Positions 50,869 through 57,379 of a stretch of 64,000 bases of DNA are shown piece by piece; the stretch's first letter is position 1, and every line of letters starts with the position of its first letter. Origin of the DNA: Candidatus Portnoybacteria bacterium RIFCSPLOWO2_01_FULL_43_11 (GTDB lineage: Bacteria; Patescibacteriota; Minisyncoccia; Portnoybacterales; UBA2143); the NCBI GenBank assembly GCA_001819605.1, contig MHNE01000017.1, positions 10-64,009 of the forward strand. Reading direction: 5' to 3'. The translations under genes and the position numbers were made by a program. The notes under the pieces are model-generated. The model ran no database searches. It saw only the letters and a list, made by a program, of their open reading frames with translations, and was not told the DNA's origin.

Positions 50869-51978
50869 CTAAATGTTGATTATCTCCATCAGCCATGGTC
50901 GGGTTAAATAATTTATCAAAACATAAATAATTAAAATAATTGCGATAAGATATTTCTTTTTTAATCTTGATAATCCGTAACCGCTAATCATCGCCAACCA
51001 GGGAACAAGAATAAAAGCGATTCTTTGAGTGAGGCCGGGCCAAGCCAAAAAAGAAACAGAGGCGGGAAGAATGGCCAATAAAATTTTAGCTCTTTCTTTA
51101 TTAAAGTTTCTATATTCCTGATACAAACCGAAAATAAAAATAGGCCAACCCGCCAAAAAAAGCCAGCCCAAAATCTTAATCAATAATAAAAAGCTCCAGT
51201 CAATGCCCGGCGCGGCCGGGTTATTAATAACTTCTTTAAAAGAAAAACCATACCAATTAAGATAAGAAAAACCAAGCCGCCAATAAATAAACAAATGATA
51301 AAAGCCGGGAATGATTAAAAATAAAACAGCGGCTTTTAAAATCTTCTTCATTCTATTTAAGAAATTTTCCGGCAGAAAAAGAATAAGAATACCCAAGGGA
51401 ATCATACCTAAAGCGCCGTATTCTTTGAATAAAACTCCGATTGAAGCCGAAAGAATCGCCAAATAATAATTTTTTTTGTTGTTTGGGTTATTAAAAAATT
51501 TAACAGCCAGTAGGGTGGTCAGTAAAAAGAAAAACCAGCCGCCGATGTCAGTCCGATAAGTAACTCCGTAATTAATCATAGCGTAATTGGTAAAAAATAA
51601 AACTGCGCCACAAAAAGCTGTCCGGTGACTCTGATAAATCAAGTAAACTAATTTATAAAAAATAAAAATTATCAAAAAATAAAAAACAATATTAACCAAA
51701 AGCATGCCGTTGTATTCGCCGCCGGCCAGCTTGCCCAAGGCAATGGAGCTGTAAAGCATTAAAGGAGTGGTTAAAATTCTGGTTTTTAGAAAAACTTCCA
51801 TGTTTTCGTCGTAATCCGCTTTGTCGTATTCCCGGCCTTGTAAAAATTTCATAGCCGCCAAATAAGTGGGAGCGTCTCCGTTTAATTTTAACGGATAGGG
51901 CAAAAGAGAAAAAGCAATAACTAAATTTAAAATCACTAAAACAGATATAAAAAAATAAGGAGATTCAATGATTTTCAT
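50869..51978 (-). CDS. Polytopic membrane protein (GT-C- or polymerase-like; function unknown)
   Basis: 369 aa with about 10 TM helices, embedded among GT4 genes. Confidence 0.4.
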   Translation of the reverse strand: MKIIESPYFFISVLVILNLVIAFSLLPYPLKLNGDAPTYLAAMKFLQGREYDKADYDENMEVFLKTRILTTPLMLYSSIALGKLAGGEYNGMLLVNIVFYFLIIFIFYKLVYLIYQSHRTAFCGAVLFFTNYAMINYGVTYRTDIGGWFFFLLTTLLAVKFFNNPNNKKNYYLAILSASIGVLFKEYGALGMIPLGILILFLPENFLNRMKKILKAAVLFLIIPGFYHLFIYWRLGFSYLNWYGFSFKEVINNPAAPGIDWSFLLLIKILGWLFLAGWPIFIFGLYQEYRNFNKERAKILLAILPASVSFLAWPGLTQRIAFILVPWLAMISGYGLSRLKKKYLIAIILIIYVLINYLTRPWLMEIINI

Positions 51979-52031
51979 ATATTTGTTCTTTTGTTGATAT
52001 TCTGATTGAAATTATCGCTTTCATTATTTTT

Positions 52032-52805
52032 TTATTTTTTAGTTTCCTTTTTAGAAACATAATCAATTATTTTATTCCAATTCAAGTTATTATTTGCATA
52101 AAAGAGCTCTATTAAATCTTTAGTCATTTCGTTTAATTTCTTAACATATAGGTCCTGAAATATTTCATCTCTTTTTTTAACTTCCTTATCTAATGGTTTG
52201 ATTATTTTTTTATAAAGTTTGTTGTCAACGGATATTAACTCCCAAAATTGTTGGCCACATAATTTATAATAGTTTTTCTTATAATCTTTTCTATCTTTCT
52301 TGAATGGCTTGTTATCTTTGCCATACATACAACCATTTACGCTGATAATTCTTAATTTTTCGCCTTCTTTTTTTAGGATTTCTTTCGCCTTTTTAAAGTT
52401 TCTTTTCATAGTGTTTATTTGGTCGCTATTGCCCCAGTTGGGCCCAGATTTAATACTAACAATATAAAATTTATTATCTCTTTTGAAAATTAGGTCAACG
52501 CTACGAAATTTTATTTGTTCTGCTTTTTCACCATCAAATACTTGTTTGCAAATATGAACAGCAAGACTTTCAAGGAGATCGCCAAAAATTGTTTCTTCTT
52601 GCGATGATAGAAATGCATCTAATAAATATCTCGCAAAATCTCCTGCCGTTTGGATGTTTTTTGCTTTAAATAAATATGGATTCTTTCTTTTTATCAAGTA
52701 ATTTAATTTTATCTTTTTAAGTTTTAATAATCTTTTTTGATAAAAAGGACGAATAACATCGCTTACGATAAATTTATTTAGTTGGTTGTGGTTTAATTTT
52801 CTCAT
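52032..52805 (-). CDS. Candidate type II restriction endonuclease
   Basis: Starts 6 nt downstream of the methyltransferase stop. It has a possible PD-(D/E)xK-like core, SVDLIF...YIVSIKSG. No family assigned. Confidence 0.5.
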   Translation of the reverse strand: MRKLNHNQLNKFIVSDVIRPFYQKRLLKLKKIKLNYLIKRKNPYLFKAKNIQTAGDFARYLLDAFLSSQEETIFGDLLESLAVHICKQVFDGEKAEQIKFRSVDLIFKRDNKFYIVSIKSGPNWGNSDQINTMKRNFKKAKEILKKEGEKLRIISVNGCMYGKDNKPFKKDRKDYKKNYYKLCGQQFWELISVDNKLYKKIIKPLDKEVKKRDEIFQDLYVKKLNEMTKDLIELFYANNNLNWNKIIDYVSKKETKK

Positions 52806-52811
52806 AGTTTT

Positions 52812-53675
52812 TTAGATGTTTTTATTTATGTTTTCTATAGCTAAATTATAATACTCTTTAAGTATTTCTATGCCGACTGAATTTCTATCTAATTCTAAGG
52901 AGGCAATTAAGGTTGTCCCCGAACCCAAAAATGGGTCTAATACGGTATCGCCTCGCTTTGTAAATAATTTAATGAACCAAACAGGAAGACTTTTTGGAAA
53001 AACAGCACTATGATTTTTATTACCTGTCTCGGTTGCTAATGCTAATACATTTGTTGGATAGGCCATTTCCCTTCCAACCCATTTAGAGACATTCTTCCCA
53101 AAGCCACTACCAACTTTTGAATTATCTCTTCGCATATCGATTTCGCTTAGATTTTTTAACCTTACTTTAGCCCATTCACCCATAGGAATCATAACTTCTT
53201 CTTGATACATATTAAATTTTTTAGTTTTATTGAATTGTAGTAATCTTTCCCAAGAGTCTCTGAATCTATTTGTCCATTTTCCTGGATAGCAATTTTTTTT
53301 GTGCCAAATATACTCTTCTGTCCATAGCCATCCCTGTTCTCTCATTTTTAAAATTAACTCTATAACATAAGTATGCCTTTCGCTATTCACTACTTTTTCT
53401 TTTATATTCAGTATAAATGTCCCCGTTGGTTTTAAGACTCTTAATAATTCTTTTGTGATTGGTAAAAACCATTCAACATAGTGATCAGGTTTAATTCCTC
53501 CGTATGTGCTATTCCTTTGGTCGGCATAAGGAGGTGAGGTTATGACCAAATCAATGCCATCTGATTTGAAACCTTTTAATACTTCCAAGGAATTACCTAA
53601 ATAAATTTCAGCCCTCGTCGCTTTTTGAGAAAAAAGATTATGTTTTTTAAATACTTTTTTATTCTTACTAATCAT
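52812..53675 (-). CDS. Beta-class DNA methyltransferase (N4-cytosine or N6-adenine; the SPPY motif favours m4C)
   Basis: Motif IV DLVITSPPYADQ lies near the N-terminus and motif I VLDPFLGSGTT near the C-terminus, which is the beta-class order. Confidence 0.85.
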   Translation of the reverse strand: MISKNKKVFKKHNLFSQKATRAEIYLGNSLEVLKGFKSDGIDLVITSPPYADQRNSTYGGIKPDHYVEWFLPITKELLRVLKPTGTFILNIKEKVVNSERHTYVIELILKMREQGWLWTEEYIWHKKNCYPGKWTNRFRDSWERLLQFNKTKKFNMYQEEVMIPMGEWAKVRLKNLSEIDMRRDNSKVGSGFGKNVSKWVGREMAYPTNVLALATETGNKNHSAVFPKSLPVWFIKLFTKRGDTVLDPFLGSGTTLIASLELDRNSVGIEILKEYYNLAIENINKNI

Positions 53676-53687
53676 GTTTATTTTTAA

Positions 53688-54182
53688 TTATAGATTTAAA
53701 GCCCGTTGTACTTTTATTACCATTTCTTTTATCATTTTTCCTGTTGTTTGATGAAATTCTTTGTGTCTCGATGCAACACGCATTGCCTCCACCGCTTTAT
53801 TAGGTATAAGCTCCTTACTTATGTGGTGATAAAAAGTCAAATATCCAATAATTGTTTGATCCCAAGTTGGCTTTTCAATGCTTCCGATTAAAGCAAAATA
53901 GGGTGGCTGACTTATAAAAAGCTTGCCATAATCTTCCATAAACATACTACAAGCAGTAAATCCATTACAAGACGACATACATAATATTAAAGAATCGCCC
54001 AAAGATGAATTTATTTTAGCAAGTTCTTTTTTCATCCAGTCCCAAGTCATTAATTCGCCGTTTGTCAGACCTAACCCATCTTCACTTCCATGAGAGCTTA
54101 TATGTAATATTGGGACTATAGCTATATTTTCTTTAGCGTATTTCTCTTTTTTTGTTAATACTTTTTCTAAAAAATCTTCCAT
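53688..54182 (-). CDS. His/Cys-dyad (clan CD, caspase/CHAT-like) protein, downstream reading-frame segment
   Basis: PILHISSHGSEDGLGL (hydrophobic strand then HG) and LILCMSSCNGF (hydrophobic strand then C). The frame stays open upstream of the annotated ATG as far as the T7 tract. Confidence 0.45.
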   Translation of the reverse strand: MEDFLEKVLTKKEKYAKENIAIVPILHISSHGSEDGLGLTNGELMTWDWMKKELAKINSSLGDSLILCMSSCNGFTACSMFMEDYGKLFISQPPYFALIGSIEKPTWDQTIIGYLTFYHHISKELIPNKAVEAMRVASRHKEFHQTTGKMIKEMVIKVQRALNL

Positions 54183-54229
54183 TGCCTTAATAAAAAAGCA
54201 TCTACTTGTTATTAATTTATAATTAGTCT

Positions 54230-54373
54230 CTATAACAGGAAAAAAACTGAAAGTACTTCTATTAAGGCGGCACCTTCTTTTTTATTTTCATAGAAATCTC
54301 TTTCGGAAGGCGATTCAATAATGTATATAAATAATTTGTATTTTAATGGAGATTGTTTAGTTTGTTCTAACAT
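54230..54373 (-). CDS. N-terminal segment (47 codons) of the same His/Cys-dyad gene, in the 0 frame
   Basis: ATG at 54373 with AAGGGA 7 nt upstream. It encodes MLEQTKQSPLKYKLFIYIIESPSERDFYENKKEGAALIEVLSVFF. It joins the downstream frame by a -1 shift at 54239..54245. Confidence 0.45.
   Translation of the reverse strand: MLEQTKQSPLKYKLFIYIIESPSERDFYENKKEGAALIEVLSVFFLL
54239..54245 (-). promoter_or_regulatory. U_UUU_UUC slippery heptamer / T7 homopolymer at the frame junction
   Basis: Minus-strand GTT TTT TTC CTG. A -1 slip gives ...V F F P V I E..., which is continuous with the 164-aa ORF. Confidence 0.5.
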
Positions 54374-54416
54374 ATCTTTATCCCTTACTACGCCTTACAA
54401 TAATATTTTTAAATTT

Positions 54417-55126: not shown

Positions 55127-57379
55127 TTATTCAACCAAATCGCGCCAAAAGTTAACTATCTTTCCGATATTTTTTTGGCGGTTGAATCTAACTTTGACCA
55201 TTTTTCTACCCGCCTCCCCCATTTGTCTGGCTTTTTCCGGATGATTGAGGAGGTACAAAGCTTTTTCAGTCAAGCCGCGGCTATCGCCAATCGGCGTTAA
55301 AAATCCGTTTTTACCGTCAATTACAATCTCTTTTGAACCGGTGGTGGCTGTGGCCACGACCGGCAAACCAGCGGCCATGGCTTCAATCAAGACTTTGCCA
55401 AAGCTTTCGTGTTTTGAGGAAGAGACATAAACATCGGAAGCGTGGTAATAATTAGTCAATTCGCTTTGCTTGATTTTGGGGGTAGAAGTTAAAATTAAAC
55501 TTTCGTCAGCTTTTATTTTCTCCGGCAGATAAAAATCAGCCCCGATTTGTAAAAAAGCCAGATTTTTATATTTTTCATAAACTAAGCTAATGGTTTTAAA
55601 AAGATTTTCGTAGTCTTTAGTTATTTCAGCCCGACGGCCCACATTGATAATAGTTTTTTTATTTTGGTGCTTCTCTCTTAAATCCCTTACTTTTTCGCGG
55701 TCGTAATTTTCAAAAATTTCCAAATCAACCGGCGTGGGAATAACTCTGATTTTATTTTTGTCAATTCCGGCCGCGATCAGTTTTTGCCTAATGCCCGAAC
55801 TGACCGCCCTAATGCCGTCAGCTCTTTTTGTTAAAAATTTACTCAAAAAAAGCAATAAAAAATTAAACCATCTTTCTTCCAACCAATATTTATTTTCCCA
55901 AAAATCTCCGTGAAAATGAATAAGCAAAGGAATTTTCAACTTCTTTTTTAAAAACCAGCCGGCCAAACCAGTAATAAAAGGGTCTTGAACGATGATTAAA
56001 CCGCTGTCTAAATGTTTCCGGCCGATTCTATACGCGTCAAAAACATAAAAAATCTTTAGCAACGAATTAGTCGGATAAGCCGTTAAGTTATTTTTAAATT
56101 TTTTTTTCTTAAAACCCTTTTTTGAAAAAACAATAATCTTAAGCCCTTTTAGCCACGGCTTAAGCCGCCTGGCGTATTCCTCGTGTCTTTCTATAACATC
56201 TCCGCTGTAATCAACTCCGAACCACGTCCTATCCGTCCCAATCATTAAAACTTTCTTTTTTATCAAGTTATTAAAAATATTTATATGGCTTTCAACCACC
56301 TCTGGCCAGGAATAATCCGCAGAAATCAGAGAAATCCGCTCTTGGTATTTTTTGTAATTCTCCTCATCTAAAAGATAATTTATTTTATCCGTTAAATCTT
56401 TTTGATTAAAGGGGTCAATAAAAATCAGATTATTTTTAAATCGCTCGTAGAATCCTGTTTCTTTGGTTAAAAGAATGGGTTTTTTAAGTTTAATGCATTC
56501 CAAAGCCAAATTTGGGCTAACCTCTGATAAAGAAGGGAGGATAACTAAAAAACATTTAGAAATTTCTTGAGTCAGCTTTTGAAAAGACAATTTATCTCTA
56601 AAAATAACATTCTTTTCCAAGTTATTTTCTCTCGTTATTTTTTCTAAATATTTTTTTTGGGGACCTTGGCCGATAATTTCCAGCCGCAAATCAGGATTTT
56701 TAACTAAAATCAGTTTAAAGGATTTGATTAAATAATCTATGTTTTTTAATTTGATTAGCCGGCCGGCAAAAATAATTTTTTGATTATTGGCGGCTTTAGA
56801 GAATGGTTTATCTTGAGGAAAAGGATTCTCAATAATTTTTGCTTTTTCTTTTTTAATTTTATAATTTTTAAAATATATTTCTTTTTGCCAACTTGTAGAA
56901 AATATAACTAAATCCGCTGTCTTTAACACCTGCCTTCCAAGCCAAAAAAATAATCTTTCTTTAAAATTTTTCGTCTTCTCGTAATATCGGCTCAAAGGCT
57001 TTTCTGACCACCCTTTTTCAACGGCTTTTTCCCATAAAAAATCGCCGCCTAAACGAATGATTAATTTCTTTTTAAGGAACTTTTTAACCAGAGCAGACGG
57101 CAGGCCGGAGCTGAATAAATCTTGAGCGTAAATTATATGAGCGTCTTTGGCTATTTTAAATAAATTCCGAAAATAAAAAAAATAACGGATAAGCAGGGAA
57201 CGGCCTCTTATGATTCTTACAAGCGGGAAATTATCTGAATAATCTTTTTGGCTGTCGGAGTAAGTGATAACGCTGATTTCTATGTTTTTCTTTTTAAGCT
57301 CGTCAGCCAGTTTTTTTACATAAACGGCTGGCCCGCCAATGTCCGGAGGAAAAATACCGCTGGCGATTAAAATTTTCAT
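55127..57379 (-). CDS. Fused double family 4 glycosyltransferase (two GT-B modules in one 750-aa protein)
   Basis: Module 1: MKILIASGIFPPDIGGPAVY ... SEVSPNLALECIKLKKPILLT. Module 2: KVLMIGTD ... HESFGKVLIEAMAAGLPVVAT. Confidence 0.75.
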   Translation of the reverse strand: MKILIASGIFPPDIGGPAVYVKKLADELKKKNIEISVITYSDSQKDYSDNFPLVRIIRGRSLLIRYFFYFRNLFKIAKDAHIIYAQDLFSSGLPSALVKKFLKKKLIIRLGGDFLWEKAVEKGWSEKPLSRYYEKTKNFKERLFFWLGRQVLKTADLVIFSTSWQKEIYFKNYKIKKEKAKIIENPFPQDKPFSKAANNQKIIFAGRLIKLKNIDYLIKSFKLILVKNPDLRLEIIGQGPQKKYLEKITRENNLEKNVIFRDKLSFQKLTQEISKCFLVILPSLSEVSPNLALECIKLKKPILLTKETGFYERFKNNLIFIDPFNQKDLTDKINYLLDEENYKKYQERISLISADYSWPEVVESHINIFNNLIKKKVLMIGTDRTWFGVDYSGDVIERHEEYARRLKPWLKGLKIIVFSKKGFKKKKFKNNLTAYPTNSLLKIFYVFDAYRIGRKHLDSGLIIVQDPFITGLAGWFLKKKLKIPLLIHFHGDFWENKYWLEERWFNFLLLFLSKFLTKRADGIRAVSSGIRQKLIAAGIDKNKIRVIPTPVDLEIFENYDREKVRDLREKHQNKKTIINVGRRAEITKDYENLFKTISLVYEKYKNLAFLQIGADFYLPEKIKADESLILTSTPKIKQSELTNYYHASDVYVSSSKHESFGKVLIEAMAAGLPVVATATTGSKEIVIDGKNGFLTPIGDSRGLTEKALYLLNHPEKARQMGEAGRKMVKVRFNRQKNIGKIVNFWRDLVE

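What the first reader, a model, noticed from the sequence alone, without database searches (positions are those of the whole stretch)
54230..54250. The protease-like gene is split exactly at a canonical -1 slippery heptamer (U_UUU_UUC) within a T7/A7 homopolymer
A 47-codon ORF has a good RBS (AAGGGA-N7-ATG at 54373). It runs into GTT TTT TTC CTG TTA TAG. The -1 frame reads CCT GTT ATA GAG... and is open for 19 codons into the annotated ATG of the 164-aa ORF. A -1 slip on U_UUU_UUC (54245..54239), or an 8th T, gives a seamless protein: ...ALIEVLSVFF-PVIETNYKLITSRCFFIKA-MEDFLEK.... There are three possible explanations: a programmed ribosomal or transcriptional frameshift controlling the dose of a potentially toxic effector, a phase-variable homopolymer switch, or a sequencing/assembly indel or recent pseudogenisation.
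Basis: seen in the sequence. Interest (0 to 1): 0.65.

Follow-up and report, generated by a model that had tools for sequence, protein, structure and literature searches.

The report
Frameshifted caspase-like gene, probably a young pseudogene
A small caspase-like gene next to a restriction-modification pair has lost one base, which splits it in two at a run of seven T's. This looks like an ordinary recent gene inactivation, not an evolved frameshifting signal.

Summary
On the minus strand a 47-codon ORF (54373..54230) ends GTT TTT TTC CTG TTA TAG. The -1 frame is open from 54239 into the ATG of the 164-aa ORF (54182..53688). A -1 slip on T_TTT_TTC, or an eighth T, gives a 228-aa protein.

That fused protein models as one compact caspase-fold (clan CD, CHAT-like) domain, with pLDDT 94. 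It belongs to a large family of single ~220-aa polypeptides.

The split is not a family feature:
- The closest orthologue (74% identity) is uninterrupted and reads GTTTTTTCTCCTGTT. Deleting its C gives exactly the window sequence and creates the T7 run.
- 39 independent homologous loci run through the site in one frame. Five more are damaged at other positions.
- No stimulatory structure, SD-like element or Rfam element flanks the site.
- The same in-frame heptamer occurs 19 times in intact genes of this window.

All assemblies of this Portnoybacteria population (27 contigs) carry T7, and no intact allele is on record, so it is not an assembly error. dN/dS is about 0.2 in all three segments and there are no further lesions, so the lesion is recent.

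Verdict: a young, population-fixed frameshift pseudogene. Low-level adventitious slippage is possible but unsupported. Low interest.

The parts
53688..54373 (-). The whole disrupted gene. It is an ancestral single ORF of about 228 codons for a minimal caspase-fold (clan CD, CHAT-like) protein, now broken by a 1-nt deletion.
   Evidence: End-to-end alignment with the uninterrupted 232-aa orthologue P0001/L001 at 74% amino-acid identity. AF2 model of the fused sequence: pLDDT 94.4, pTM 0.91. Foldseek hits to SAVED-CHAT, caspases, gingipain, C11 and legumain.
54230..54373 (-). ORF1, 47 codons plus TAG. It is the N-terminal fragment: strand beta1 (KLFIYIIESPS) and helix alpha1. The last two codons (LL) are out-of-frame read-through.
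   Evidence: It holds the family's near-invariant residues E20, S21, P22, D26 and E33. It was called as a 47-aa gene on 27 contigs.
54239..54246 (-). The lesion. T7 run at 54246..54240; heptamer T_TTT_TTC at 54245..54239. One base is missing relative to the orthologue.
   Evidence: Window GTTTTTT-TCCTGTT against L001 GTTTTTTCTCCTGTT. T7 in L002-L005 and T6-C-T in L001.
54183..54239 (-). Nineteen-codon 'linker' in the -1 frame (PVIETNYKLITSRCFFIKA). This is former coding sequence for strand beta2 and the start of helix alpha2. It is translated by neither annotated ORF.
   Evidence: dN/dS against L001 is 0.20, the same as the rest of the gene. Secondary structure E48-54 and H58-80.
53688..54182 (-). 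ORF2, 164 aa (P0002; UniRef name 'CHAT domain-containing protein'). It is the C-terminal fragment. It carries the catalytic-type His95 (CAT 54092..54090, motif ISSHG) and Cys136 (TGT 53969..53967, motif SSCNG). It starts inside helix alpha2.
   Evidence: C136 is invariant; H95 and G96 are conserved in at least 90% of 142 family members. Met65 aligns with Ile in both homologues.
52812..53675 (-). Context: an intact N6/N4 DNA methyltransferase 12 nt downstream of the disrupted gene.
   Evidence: Pfam N6_N4_Mtase, E 2e-44, profile positions 1-220 of 221.
52032..52805 (-). Context: an intact type II restriction endonuclease of the EcoO109I family, 6 nt downstream of the methyltransferase.
   Evidence: Pfam RE_EcoO109I, E 6e-74, profile positions 6-198 of 198.

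Best explanation
The feature is a recent loss-of-function frameshift mutation. An accessory gene for a minimal (about 228 aa) caspase-fold, CHAT-like cysteine-protease-type protein sits at the head of a small methyltransferase/EcoO109I-type restriction block. It has lost one base at codon 45/46.

From a sequence like that of the nearest orthologue (GTT TTT TCT CCT GTT), deleting the single C gives exactly the window sequence (GTT TTT T-T CCT GTT). The same event creates the T7 run and the 'slippery heptamer'. A C-to-T change followed by loss of one T from a T8 run is equally possible.

Translation from the good start site now stops after 47 codons. The annotated 164-aa ORF starts at an internal Met in the middle of a helix and lacks two core beta strands, so neither product can form the domain.

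The mutation is fixed in the sampled Candidatus Portnoybacteria population. It is young, because no second lesion has accumulated. Spontaneous ribosomal or transcriptional slippage on U7 may yield traces of full-length protein, but nothing indicates that this has been selected.

Shown: the lesion, its absence from homologues, its fixation at consensus level, the fold, and the absence of stimulators. Inferred: loss of function, recency, and the direction of the mutation.
For: 1. Single-polypeptide family. An exhaustive HMMER search gives 1784 cluster representatives. Nearly all of the best 150 are 200-260 aa and cover profile positions ~13-217. The window's ORF2 is the top hit and covers only 65-227.
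2. The closest orthologue, P0001, is uninterrupted. It differs at the site by one extra base and has no T7 and no heptamer.
3. By tblastn, L001 plus 38 more of the 43 loci L006-L048 cross the site in one frame. Only the window's own strain is split there.
4. Other members are damaged at unrelated places. L018 and L045 have in-frame stops, and L045 an extra frameshift. L019, L020 and L046 are truncated. L050 has lost its 5' end. This is the pattern of a dispensable accessory gene.
5. The fused protein models as one compact domain (pLDDT 94.4, pTM 0.91). The break lies between alpha1 (33-44) and beta2 (48-54), and Met65 lies inside helix 58-80. Five near-invariant residues lie in ORF1.
6. No frameshift stimulator was found. 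Folding z-scores downstream of the site are -0.19, -0.34, -1.18 and +0.27. Long-range pairing is no better than shuffles, with 126 of 300 as good. There is no Rfam match. No SD-like sequence lies in the 20 nt upstream (read).
7. The motif is uninformative here: 19 in-frame T_TTT_TTC heptamers and 154 A/T runs of 7 or more in 50 intact ORFs.
8. It is not an artefact. T7 is present in four further assemblies from different samples and assemblers, all 99.7-100% identical. The 47-aa ORF is on 27 contigs and the 164-aa ORF is in four NCBI MAG records. Neither possible intact 228-aa allele exists among 15 billion proteins.
Against: - U_UU.U_UU.C is a shift-prone heptamer in E. coli. It gives more than 0.1% frameshifting without a stimulator, high levels with a pseudoknot, and is used by some IS elements (PMC4066793). 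Some full-length protein is therefore plausible.
- All three segments show dN/dS of about 0.2 against the orthologue, and there are no further stops or indels. That fits a gene still under selection as well as it fits a very young pseudogene. With dS near 1 the terminal branch cannot be isolated.
- The frameshift is fixed and not polymorphic in every assembly.
- The flanking methyltransferase and endonuclease genes are intact.
- Read-level heterogeneity could not be examined.
Confidence: 0.8

Rival explanations
1. Utilised (programmed or 'compensatory') -1 ribosomal frameshifting or transcriptional slippage. The fixed frameshift on U_UUU_UUC keeps a potentially toxic caspase-like effector at a very low dose, with the 47-aa product as waste.
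For: The heptamer is in the correct register and is shift-prone in E. coli (PMC4066793). The zero-frame stop follows two codons later. The lesion is fixed in the population. There are no secondary lesions and dN/dS is about 0.2. 'Savior indel plus low-level frameshifting' is a documented concept (PMC5009743).
Against: - No orthologue or homologue shares the heptamer or the split.
- The heptamer appears to be created by the deletion itself.
- There is no downstream hairpin or pseudoknot, no upstream SD-like element, no long-range pairing and no Rfam element.
- The same heptamer occurs 19 times in frame in intact genes of the window.
- Bacterial transcriptional slippage is described for runs of 9 A/T (PMC5009743), and this run is 7.
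Confidence: 0.08
2. Phase-variable homopolymer switch. The T7 tract is the OFF state and T8 the ON state of a contingency gene linked to a restriction-modification block.
For: T8 would restore the frame with the same protein sequence. The gene sits in a defence-type block, and homopolymer phase variation is well known for such genes (established knowledge).
Against: - All 27 contigs, from several samples and assemblers, are T7, and no ON allele is recorded.
- The tract is short, and such tracts are ubiquitous in this genome.
- The orthologue has an interrupted T6-C-T at the site, so the tract is not conserved.
Confidence: 0.07
3. Sequencing or assembly indel. The real genome has eight bases there and the gene is intact.
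For: Homopolymers are classic sites of indel error. The restored frame is seamless.
Against: The same T7 is found in independent assemblies from different samples and assemblers: MEGAHIT k141 contigs, JGI, an ENA scaffold assembly, and four NCBI MAG records. No intact version is found among 15 billion proteins. A 7-base run is not normally problematic for short-read chemistry (established knowledge).
Confidence: 0.03
4. The fragments are functional as they stand, either as a two-piece enzyme (47 aa plus 164 aa) or as an N-terminally truncated 164-aa protein.
For: Both catalytic-type residues, H95 and C136, lie in the 164-aa ORF. Gene callers annotate it as a protein.
Against: - Strand beta2 and the start of alpha2 (residues 46-64) would be translated by neither ORF.
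- Met65 lies inside a helix and aligns with Ile in both homologues.
- Its only SD-like sequence, AAGG, is 2 nt from the ATG.
- Five near-invariant residues are in ORF1.
- N-terminally short family members that were checked are a start-codon miscall or a truncated remnant.
Confidence: 0.02

Closest known systems
Ordinary frameshifted pseudogenes of accessory or defence-island genes in bacteria
   Same: A single-base indel at or next to a homopolymer. Homologues are uninterrupted. Neither fragment is a whole domain. Other family members are inactivated at unrelated positions.
   Different: It is very young. There is no second lesion, and dN/dS against the nearest orthologue is still about 0.2. 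It is fixed in all sampled assemblies.
Programmed -1 ribosomal frameshift sites of dnaX and IS3/IS1-family transposases
   Same: An X_XXY_YYZ heptamer in the zero-frame register, with a zero-frame stop shortly after. U_UU.U_UU.C is among the motifs used by some IS elements (PMC4066793).
   Different: There is no downstream hairpin or pseudoknot and no upstream SD-like stimulator. The motif and the two-ORF layout are not conserved in homologues. The short zero-frame product is not a domain.
Frameshifts in homopolymer tracts rescued by polymerase slippage in reduced genomes (Buchnera, Blochmannia), and 'savior indels' such as the G7 run of herpesvirus thymidine kinase
   Same: A frameshifted gene in an A+T-rich reduced genome, with the lesion in a homopolymer. 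Low-level slippage could restore the frame (concept from PMC5009743).
   Different: The tract is only 7 bases, and bacterial slippage is described for runs of 9. The frameshift is not conserved across lineages. No expression data exist.
Clan CD cysteine peptidases: CHAT domain (for example SAVED-CHAT, PDB 8tl0), caspases (C14), legumain (C13), gingipain, C11
   Same: This concerns the protein, not the frameshift. It has the caspase fold: Foldseek E 5e-7 to SAVED-CHAT and 1e-4 to caspase-7 and caspase-8, with TM about 0.5-0.6. It has a conserved SHG...SC.G His/Cys dyad. Some members give weak Pfam hits to C13, CHAT and C14.
   Different: It is a stand-alone domain of about 220 aa with no sensor or partner domain. 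The window protein is below Pfam's gathering scores. There is no PADLOC, NCBIfam or PDB sequence match. Neighbouring genes vary. Activity and substrate are unknown.

Membership tests
Programmed -1 ribosomal frameshift signal | A slippery heptamer X_XXY_YYZ in the zero-frame register at the junction of the two ORFs | tested here: met
   T_TTT_TTC at 54245..54239, zero-frame codons GTT TTT TTC. The motif is shift-prone in E. coli (PMC4066793). It also occurs 19 times in frame in intact genes of the window.
Programmed -1 ribosomal frameshift signal | A stimulatory element: a hairpin or pseudoknot 5-9 nt downstream, or an SD-like sequence about 10 nt upstream | tested here: not met
   Fold z-scores are -0.19, -0.34, -1.18 and +0.27. 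The hairpin next to the site is only -1.9 kcal/mol. Long-range duplex energy equals the shuffles. No Rfam match. No GGAGG-like sequence upstream.
Programmed -1 ribosomal frameshift signal | The shift site and the two-frame layout are conserved among orthologues | tested here: not met
   The orthologue L001 is a single ORF with T6-C-T. L001 plus 38 of the 43 loci L006-L048 cross the site in one frame. N-terminally short relatives are a miscalled start or a truncation.
Programmed -1 ribosomal frameshift signal | Measured frameshifting above background that yields a functional trans-frame product | not testable with these tools
   This needs a reporter assay or proteomics.
Phase-variable homopolymer (contingency locus) | Tract-length polymorphism between cells, strains or samples | tested here: not met
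   This was tested at assembly-consensus level only. T7 is present in all five sequences read. The 47-aa ORF is on 27 contigs, and no intact allele exists among 15 billion proteins. Read-level heterogeneity was not testable.
Phase-variable homopolymer (contingency locus) | An unusually long tract, conserved at that position | tested here: not met
   T7 is one of 154 A/T runs of 7 or more in the coding sequence of this window. The orthologue has an interrupted tract.
Frameshifted pseudogene | Homologues encode one uninterrupted polypeptide spanning both fragments | tested here: met
Frameshifted pseudogene | The lesion is explained by a simple mutation relative to an intact relative | tested here: met
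   Deleting one C from the L001 sequence reproduces the window sequence exactly.
Frameshifted pseudogene | Neither fragment can form the domain | tested here: met
   The AF2 model places the break between alpha1 and beta2. Residues 46-64 are untranslated. ORF2 begins inside a helix. Conserved residues lie on both sides of the break. This is an inference from a model, not an assay.
Frameshifted pseudogene | Signs of relaxed selection, or further lesions | tested here: inconclusive
   dN/dS is 0.22, 0.20 and 0.16 for the three segments, with dS of 0.87-1.0 over the whole divergence from L001. There are no extra stops or indels, and no SNPs in the gene among strain variants. This fits a very recent event but cannot separate it from continued function.
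Frameshifted pseudogene | The lesion is real and not an assembly artefact | tested here: met
   Independent assemblies and samples agree. Raw reads were not available.
Clan CD caspase-fold peptidases (CHAT / C13 / C14) | Caspase-hemoglobinase fold | tested here: met
   Foldseek against PDB: SAVED-CHAT 8tl0 at E 4.9e-7; caspase-7 and caspase-8, CED-3, RgpB, C11, legumain, MALT1 and Csx29 at E 1e-4 to 2e-3. The model has pLDDT 94.4.
Clan CD caspase-fold peptidases (CHAT / C13 / C14) | A conserved catalytic His (His-Gly) after one strand and a Cys after the next | tested here: met
   C136 is invariant; H95 and G96 are conserved in at least 90% of 142 members. The motifs ISSHG and SSCNG are in the window.
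Clan CD caspase-fold peptidases (CHAT / C13 / C14) | A sequence match above the curated threshold of a Pfam clan CD family | tested here: not met
   The fused protein scores 13.6 bits against Peptidase_C13, whose cut-off is 22.8. Among 142 family members, 17 hit C13, 8 hit CHAT and 2 hit C14 at E of 0.01 or less. There is no NCBIfam, PADLOC or PDB sequence match.
Clan CD caspase-fold peptidases (CHAT / C13 / C14) | Peptidase activity | not testable with these tools
   This needs biochemistry.

The most novel reading that the evidence does not exclude
The fixed frameshift could be a 'savior indel'. In this reduced, A+T-rich CPR genome a self-damaging caspase-like defence effector would be kept at roughly 0.1-1% of its normal dose. 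Spontaneous ribosomal or transcriptional slippage on U_UUU_UUC, with no dedicated stimulator, would supply that trace. Selection would maintain the arrangement, which would explain why all three segments are still clean.
Probability: 0.07. Interest if true: 0.5.

Novelty: already known. Interest (0 to 1): 0.12.

Why it matters
As found, it matters little. It is an annotation correction: the 47-aa and 164-aa 'genes' of these Portnoybacteria MAGs are two pieces of one frameshifted gene.

It also shows that in A+T-rich genomes a 'canonical slippery heptamer' at a gene break carries almost no information. Indels tend to fall in such runs, or create them, and the same motif is frequent in intact genes.

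If the minority reading were true, it would be an example of dose control of a caspase-like effector by uncorrected frameshifting in a CPR bacterium. That would be of moderate interest to the recoding and phage-defence fields.

The protein family may deserve a separate look. It is a widespread stand-alone caspase fold of about 220 aa with no curated model.

Tried and rejected
- **Downstream stimulatory structure.** I folded four segments around and after the heptamer. None was better than shuffles.
- **Long-range pairing.** The repeat finder reported a 32-nt imperfect inverted repeat (I2) between the site (54234..54265) and the 3' end of the gene (53714..53745). An RNAduplex shuffle test showed it is not better than chance: -19.1 against a mean of -19.0 kcal/mol, with 126 of 300 shuffles as good.
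- **Known RNA elements.** Rfam, including frameshift elements, gave nothing at E up to 1.
- **Closer relatives.** The first metagenome scan with the fused protein found nothing. The second scan, and the genome scan with the alignment, found only relatives of 27-39% identity over full-length matches. The only relative between 40% and 99% identity remains P0001.
- **Segment-wise dN/dS.** It is uniform at about 0.2, so it cannot date the lesion.
- **SNPs among strain variants.** There are none in the gene.
- **Conserved partner gene.** I looked for one that would suggest a function. The neighbours are heterogeneous.
- **Short family members.** N-terminally short members might have shared the split. 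P0103 is a start-codon miscall, with the N-terminus in the same frame. P0076 is a 5'-truncated remnant.
- **Other searches.** PADLOC, NCBIfam and PDB sequence searches gave no hits. A literature search for a described stand-alone CHAT or caspase defence family found nothing specific.

Full report
**1. The observation**

- On the minus strand an ATG at 54373 is preceded by AAGGGA-N7. It opens a 47-codon ORF that ends GTT TTT TTC CTG TTA TAG, with the stop at 54232..54230.
- The T run is seven bases long (54246..54240). T_TTT_TTC (54245..54239) is in the X_XXY_YYZ register of the zero frame.
- The -1 frame from 54239 is open for 19 codons (PVIETNYKLITSRCFFIKA). It runs into the ATG (54182) of the 164-aa ORF 54182..53688.
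- A -1 slip, or an eighth T, gives a 228-aa protein.

**2. What the gene is**

The fused protein is one caspase-fold domain.

- *Close relatives.* A search of 5.8 billion protein clusters found the 164-aa ORF itself (P0002, Candidatus Portnoybacteria MAGs). It also found an uninterrupted 232-aa orthologue with 74% identity over 100% of the query (P0001), and an uninterrupted 203-aa relative with 39% identity (P0003).
- *Wider family.* An exhaustive profile search found 1784 cluster representatives at E of 1e-3 or below. Nearly all of the best 150 are 200-260 aa and cover profile positions ~13-217. The window's ORF2 is the top hit but covers only 65-227.
- *Conserved residues.* In an alignment of 142 members C136 is invariant. 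At least 90% conserved are E20, S21, P22, D26, E33, P88, H91, S93, H95, G96, G100, L103, W111, L114, S134, G138, Y182, M198, A201 and F207. Five of these lie in the 47-aa ORF.
- *Structure.* With that alignment AlphaFold2 models the fused sequence as one compact domain, with pLDDT 94.4 and pTM 0.91. Foldseek against the PDB finds SAVED-CHAT (8tl0, E 5e-7), then caspase-7, caspase-8 and caspase-3, CED-3, gingipain RgpB, a C11 peptidase, legumain, MALT1 and Csx29.
- *Sequence families.* The fused protein is below Pfam thresholds (Peptidase_C13, 13.6 bits). Individual members do hit C13 (17 of 142), CHAT (8) and C14 (2). There is no PADLOC, NCBIfam or PDB sequence match.
- *Motifs.* ISSHG (H95) and SSCNG (C136) correspond to the SHG and QACxG motifs of caspases (established knowledge).

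So 'protease-like' is justified at the level of fold and dyad. Activity is untested.

**3. Where the break falls in the fold**

The junction (residues 45/46) lies between helix alpha1 (33-44) and strand beta2 (48-54). Met65 lies inside helix 58-80.

- ORF1 carries beta1 and alpha1.
- The 19 linker codons (beta2 and the start of alpha2) are translated by neither ORF.
- ORF2 lacks two core strands.
- Met65 aligns with Ile in both homologues. Its only SD-like sequence, AAGG, is 2 nt from the ATG.

Neither annotated product is therefore a plausible functional protein. This is an inference from the model.

**4. Is the split a conserved feature?**

No.

- *The nearest orthologue.* At the DNA level L001 reads CTTTCGGTTTTTTCTCCTGTTATA, and the window reads CTTTCAGTTTTTT-TCCTGTTATA. 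Removing the single C from the orthologue's TCT codon reproduces the window sequence and creates the T7 run. The heptamer may thus be a product of the lesion, not a pre-existing signal. A C-to-T change followed by T8-to-T7 is equally possible, and the ancestral state cannot be determined at dS near 1.
- *Other loci.* tblastn of the fused protein against every fetched locus gives a single HSP across the site in L001 and in 38 of the 43 loci L006-L048. These come from Omnitrophota, Nostoc, Rhodanobacter, Bacteroidota and many metagenomes. Two HSPs in adjacent frames meeting at residue 45 are seen only in the window's own strain.
- *Damaged members.* Several members are damaged at other positions. 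L018 and L045 have in-frame stops, and L045 has an additional frameshift. L019, L020 and L046 break off after about 100 residues. L050 has lost its 5' end.
- *A short member.* P0103 begins just after the site, but it is only a miscalled start. Its N-terminus continues upstream in the same frame.

This is the pattern of a dispensable accessory gene that is repeatedly inactivated.

**5. Is it an artefact?**

No.

- Four further contigs from different samples and assemblers are 99.7-100% identical to the window and all carry T7.
- The 47-aa ORF is on 27 contigs and the 164-aa ORF on 19 contigs. The latter is in four NCBI MAG records.
- Neither possible intact allele (…SVFFPV… or …SVFSPV…) exists among about 15 billion proteins.

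The same data give no sign of ON/OFF polymorphism, but only at consensus level.

**6. Is there a frameshift signal beyond the heptamer?**

No.

- Folding the region, and three segments starting just after the heptamer, gives z-scores of -0.19, -0.34, -1.18 and +0.27. The hairpin adjacent to the site is worth only -1.9 kcal/mol.
- A 32-nt imperfect complementarity between the site and the 3' end of the gene is no better than shuffles, with 126 of 300 as good.
- Rfam gives nothing.
- No SD-like sequence precedes the site.

The motif is also commonplace. The window (36% G+C) has 125 A/T runs of exactly 7 and 37 of exactly 8. Its 50 intact ORFs hold 19 in-frame T_TTT_TTC, 30 T_TTT_TTT, 14 A_AAA_AAG and 33 A_AAA_AAA heptamers.

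In fairness, U_UU.U_UU.C is shift-prone in E. coli. It gives more than 0.1% frameshifting without a stimulator, is efficient with a pseudoknot, and is used by some IS elements (PMC4066793). 'Savior indels' compensated by very low frameshifting are documented (PMC5009743). The same review describes bacterial transcriptional slippage on runs of 9 A or T, longer than this run.

**7. Age of the lesion**

Nei-Gojobori dN/dS against L001 is 0.22 for codons 1-45, 0.20 for the 19 linker codons and 0.16 for the 164 C-terminal codons, with dS of 0.87-1.0.

- The linker was therefore coding sequence for nearly all of the divergence.
- The gene has no further stop or indel.
- Strain variants show no SNP in it.

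The lesion is recent relative to the split from L001. It does predate the small strain diversity sampled. This test cannot separate 'very young pseudogene' from 'still selected'.

**8. Context**

The gene heads a tight co-directional block. It is followed after 12 nt by an intact N6/N4 DNA methyltransferase, and then after 6 nt by an intact EcoO109I-family endonuclease. The block lies inside a long run of glycosyltransferase genes. Its G+C is slightly lower than that of the flanks, 0.27-0.34 against 0.34-0.39.

Homologues sit next to varied genes: GmrSD and an HTH protein (L001), UvrD-PD-(D/E)XK helicase-nucleases (L006 and L014), another N6/N4 methylase (L014), RecD2, a PIN protein and a trypsin-like protease. 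One sits next to an enoyl reductase. This fits a mobile accessory or defence-island gene with no fixed partner. Its function remains unknown.

**9. Verdict**

- Most likely (about 0.8): a recent single-base deletion that inactivated an accessory caspase-like gene and became fixed in this Portnoybacteria population. The 'canonical slippery heptamer' reflects A+T-rich sequence and the bias of indels towards homopolymers.
- Utilised or compensatory frameshifting: about 0.08.
- Phase variation: about 0.07.
- Sequencing or assembly error: about 0.03.
- Functional fragments: about 0.02.

None of the rivals is excluded. Reads, transcripts or a reporter assay would be needed to revive them. The finding is ordinary and scores low. 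Its practical value is an annotation correction, and a caution about reading slippery motifs in A+T-rich genomes.

Noticed in passing
window 53688..54373 (-); family members P0004-P0152; loci L006-L048: The protein belongs to a large family with no curated model: 1784 cluster representatives at E of 1e-3 or below. Members are stand-alone caspase-fold proteins of about 220 aa with the consensus FVYIIESPS…PILHISAHG…CMSSC.G. There is no Pfam, NCBIfam or PADLOC model for it. It occurs in Cyanobacteria, Proteobacteria, Bacteroidota, Omnitrophota and CPR.
   Followed up: partly
L014 1080..8585; L006 153..4699; L001 1618..4239; window 52032..54373: Homologues often sit beside DNA-targeting defence-type genes. 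In L014 (Anabaena) and L006 (Omnitrophota) a UvrD-PD-(D/E)XK helicase-nuclease lies immediately upstream. L014 and the window have an N6/N4 DNA methylase downstream. L001 has GmrSD. This may point to an undescribed defence module, but other neighbours are unrelated: an enoyl reductase and a secreted BNR protein.
   Followed up: partly
L018 3941..4700; L045 3941..4720; L019 and L020 4001..4300; L046 943..1300; L050 1..460: The family is repeatedly pseudogenised at unrelated positions. There are in-frame stops (L018, L045), an extra frameshift (L045) and truncations (L019, L020, L046). L050 is a 5'-truncated remnant that abuts a P-type-ATPase-like ORF.
   Followed up: yes
window 52000..54400 against its flanks: The three-gene block (caspase-like gene, methylase, EcoO109I-type endonuclease) is embedded in a minus-strand gene array of more than 50 kb that includes many glycosyltransferases. 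Its G+C is slightly lower, 0.27-0.34 against 0.34-0.39, which suggests a horizontally acquired insertion. No flanking repeats were found.
   Followed up: partly
window 54180..54192 (-): The annotated start of the 164-aa ORF (Met65, ATG 54182) aligns with Ile in both homologues (ATA in L001). AAGG lies only 2 nt upstream. The start codon looks like an incidental internal Met and not a real initiation site.
   Followed up: partly
window 51478..51513 and 55747..55768; locus L003: Strain variant L003 (ENA ERZ28563660) has a 9-bp deletion and clustered substitutions in the PMT_2-family gene (51478..51513). Its copy of the 750-aa glycosyltransferase gene is called as two genes of 555 and 198 aa, around a stretch that does not align with the window.
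   Followed up: no
L006 153..3641: The UvrD-like helicase-nuclease next to the Omnitrophota homologue contains an intein, with Intein_splicing and Hint domains at residues ~104-468.
   Followed up: no
P0002 accessions: The identical 164-aa protein is deposited under three Candidatus Portnoybacteria MAGs and one 'candidate division WWE3' MAG. The contig was probably binned into different phyla in different samples.
   Followed up: no
window 53714..53745 and 54234..54265: A 32-nt inverted repeat, 72% complementary, links the frameshift site to the 3' end of the same gene. It has a perfect 11-bp core, UUUUUCCUGUU with AACAGGAAAAA. A shuffle test shows it is not beyond chance.
   Followed up: yes
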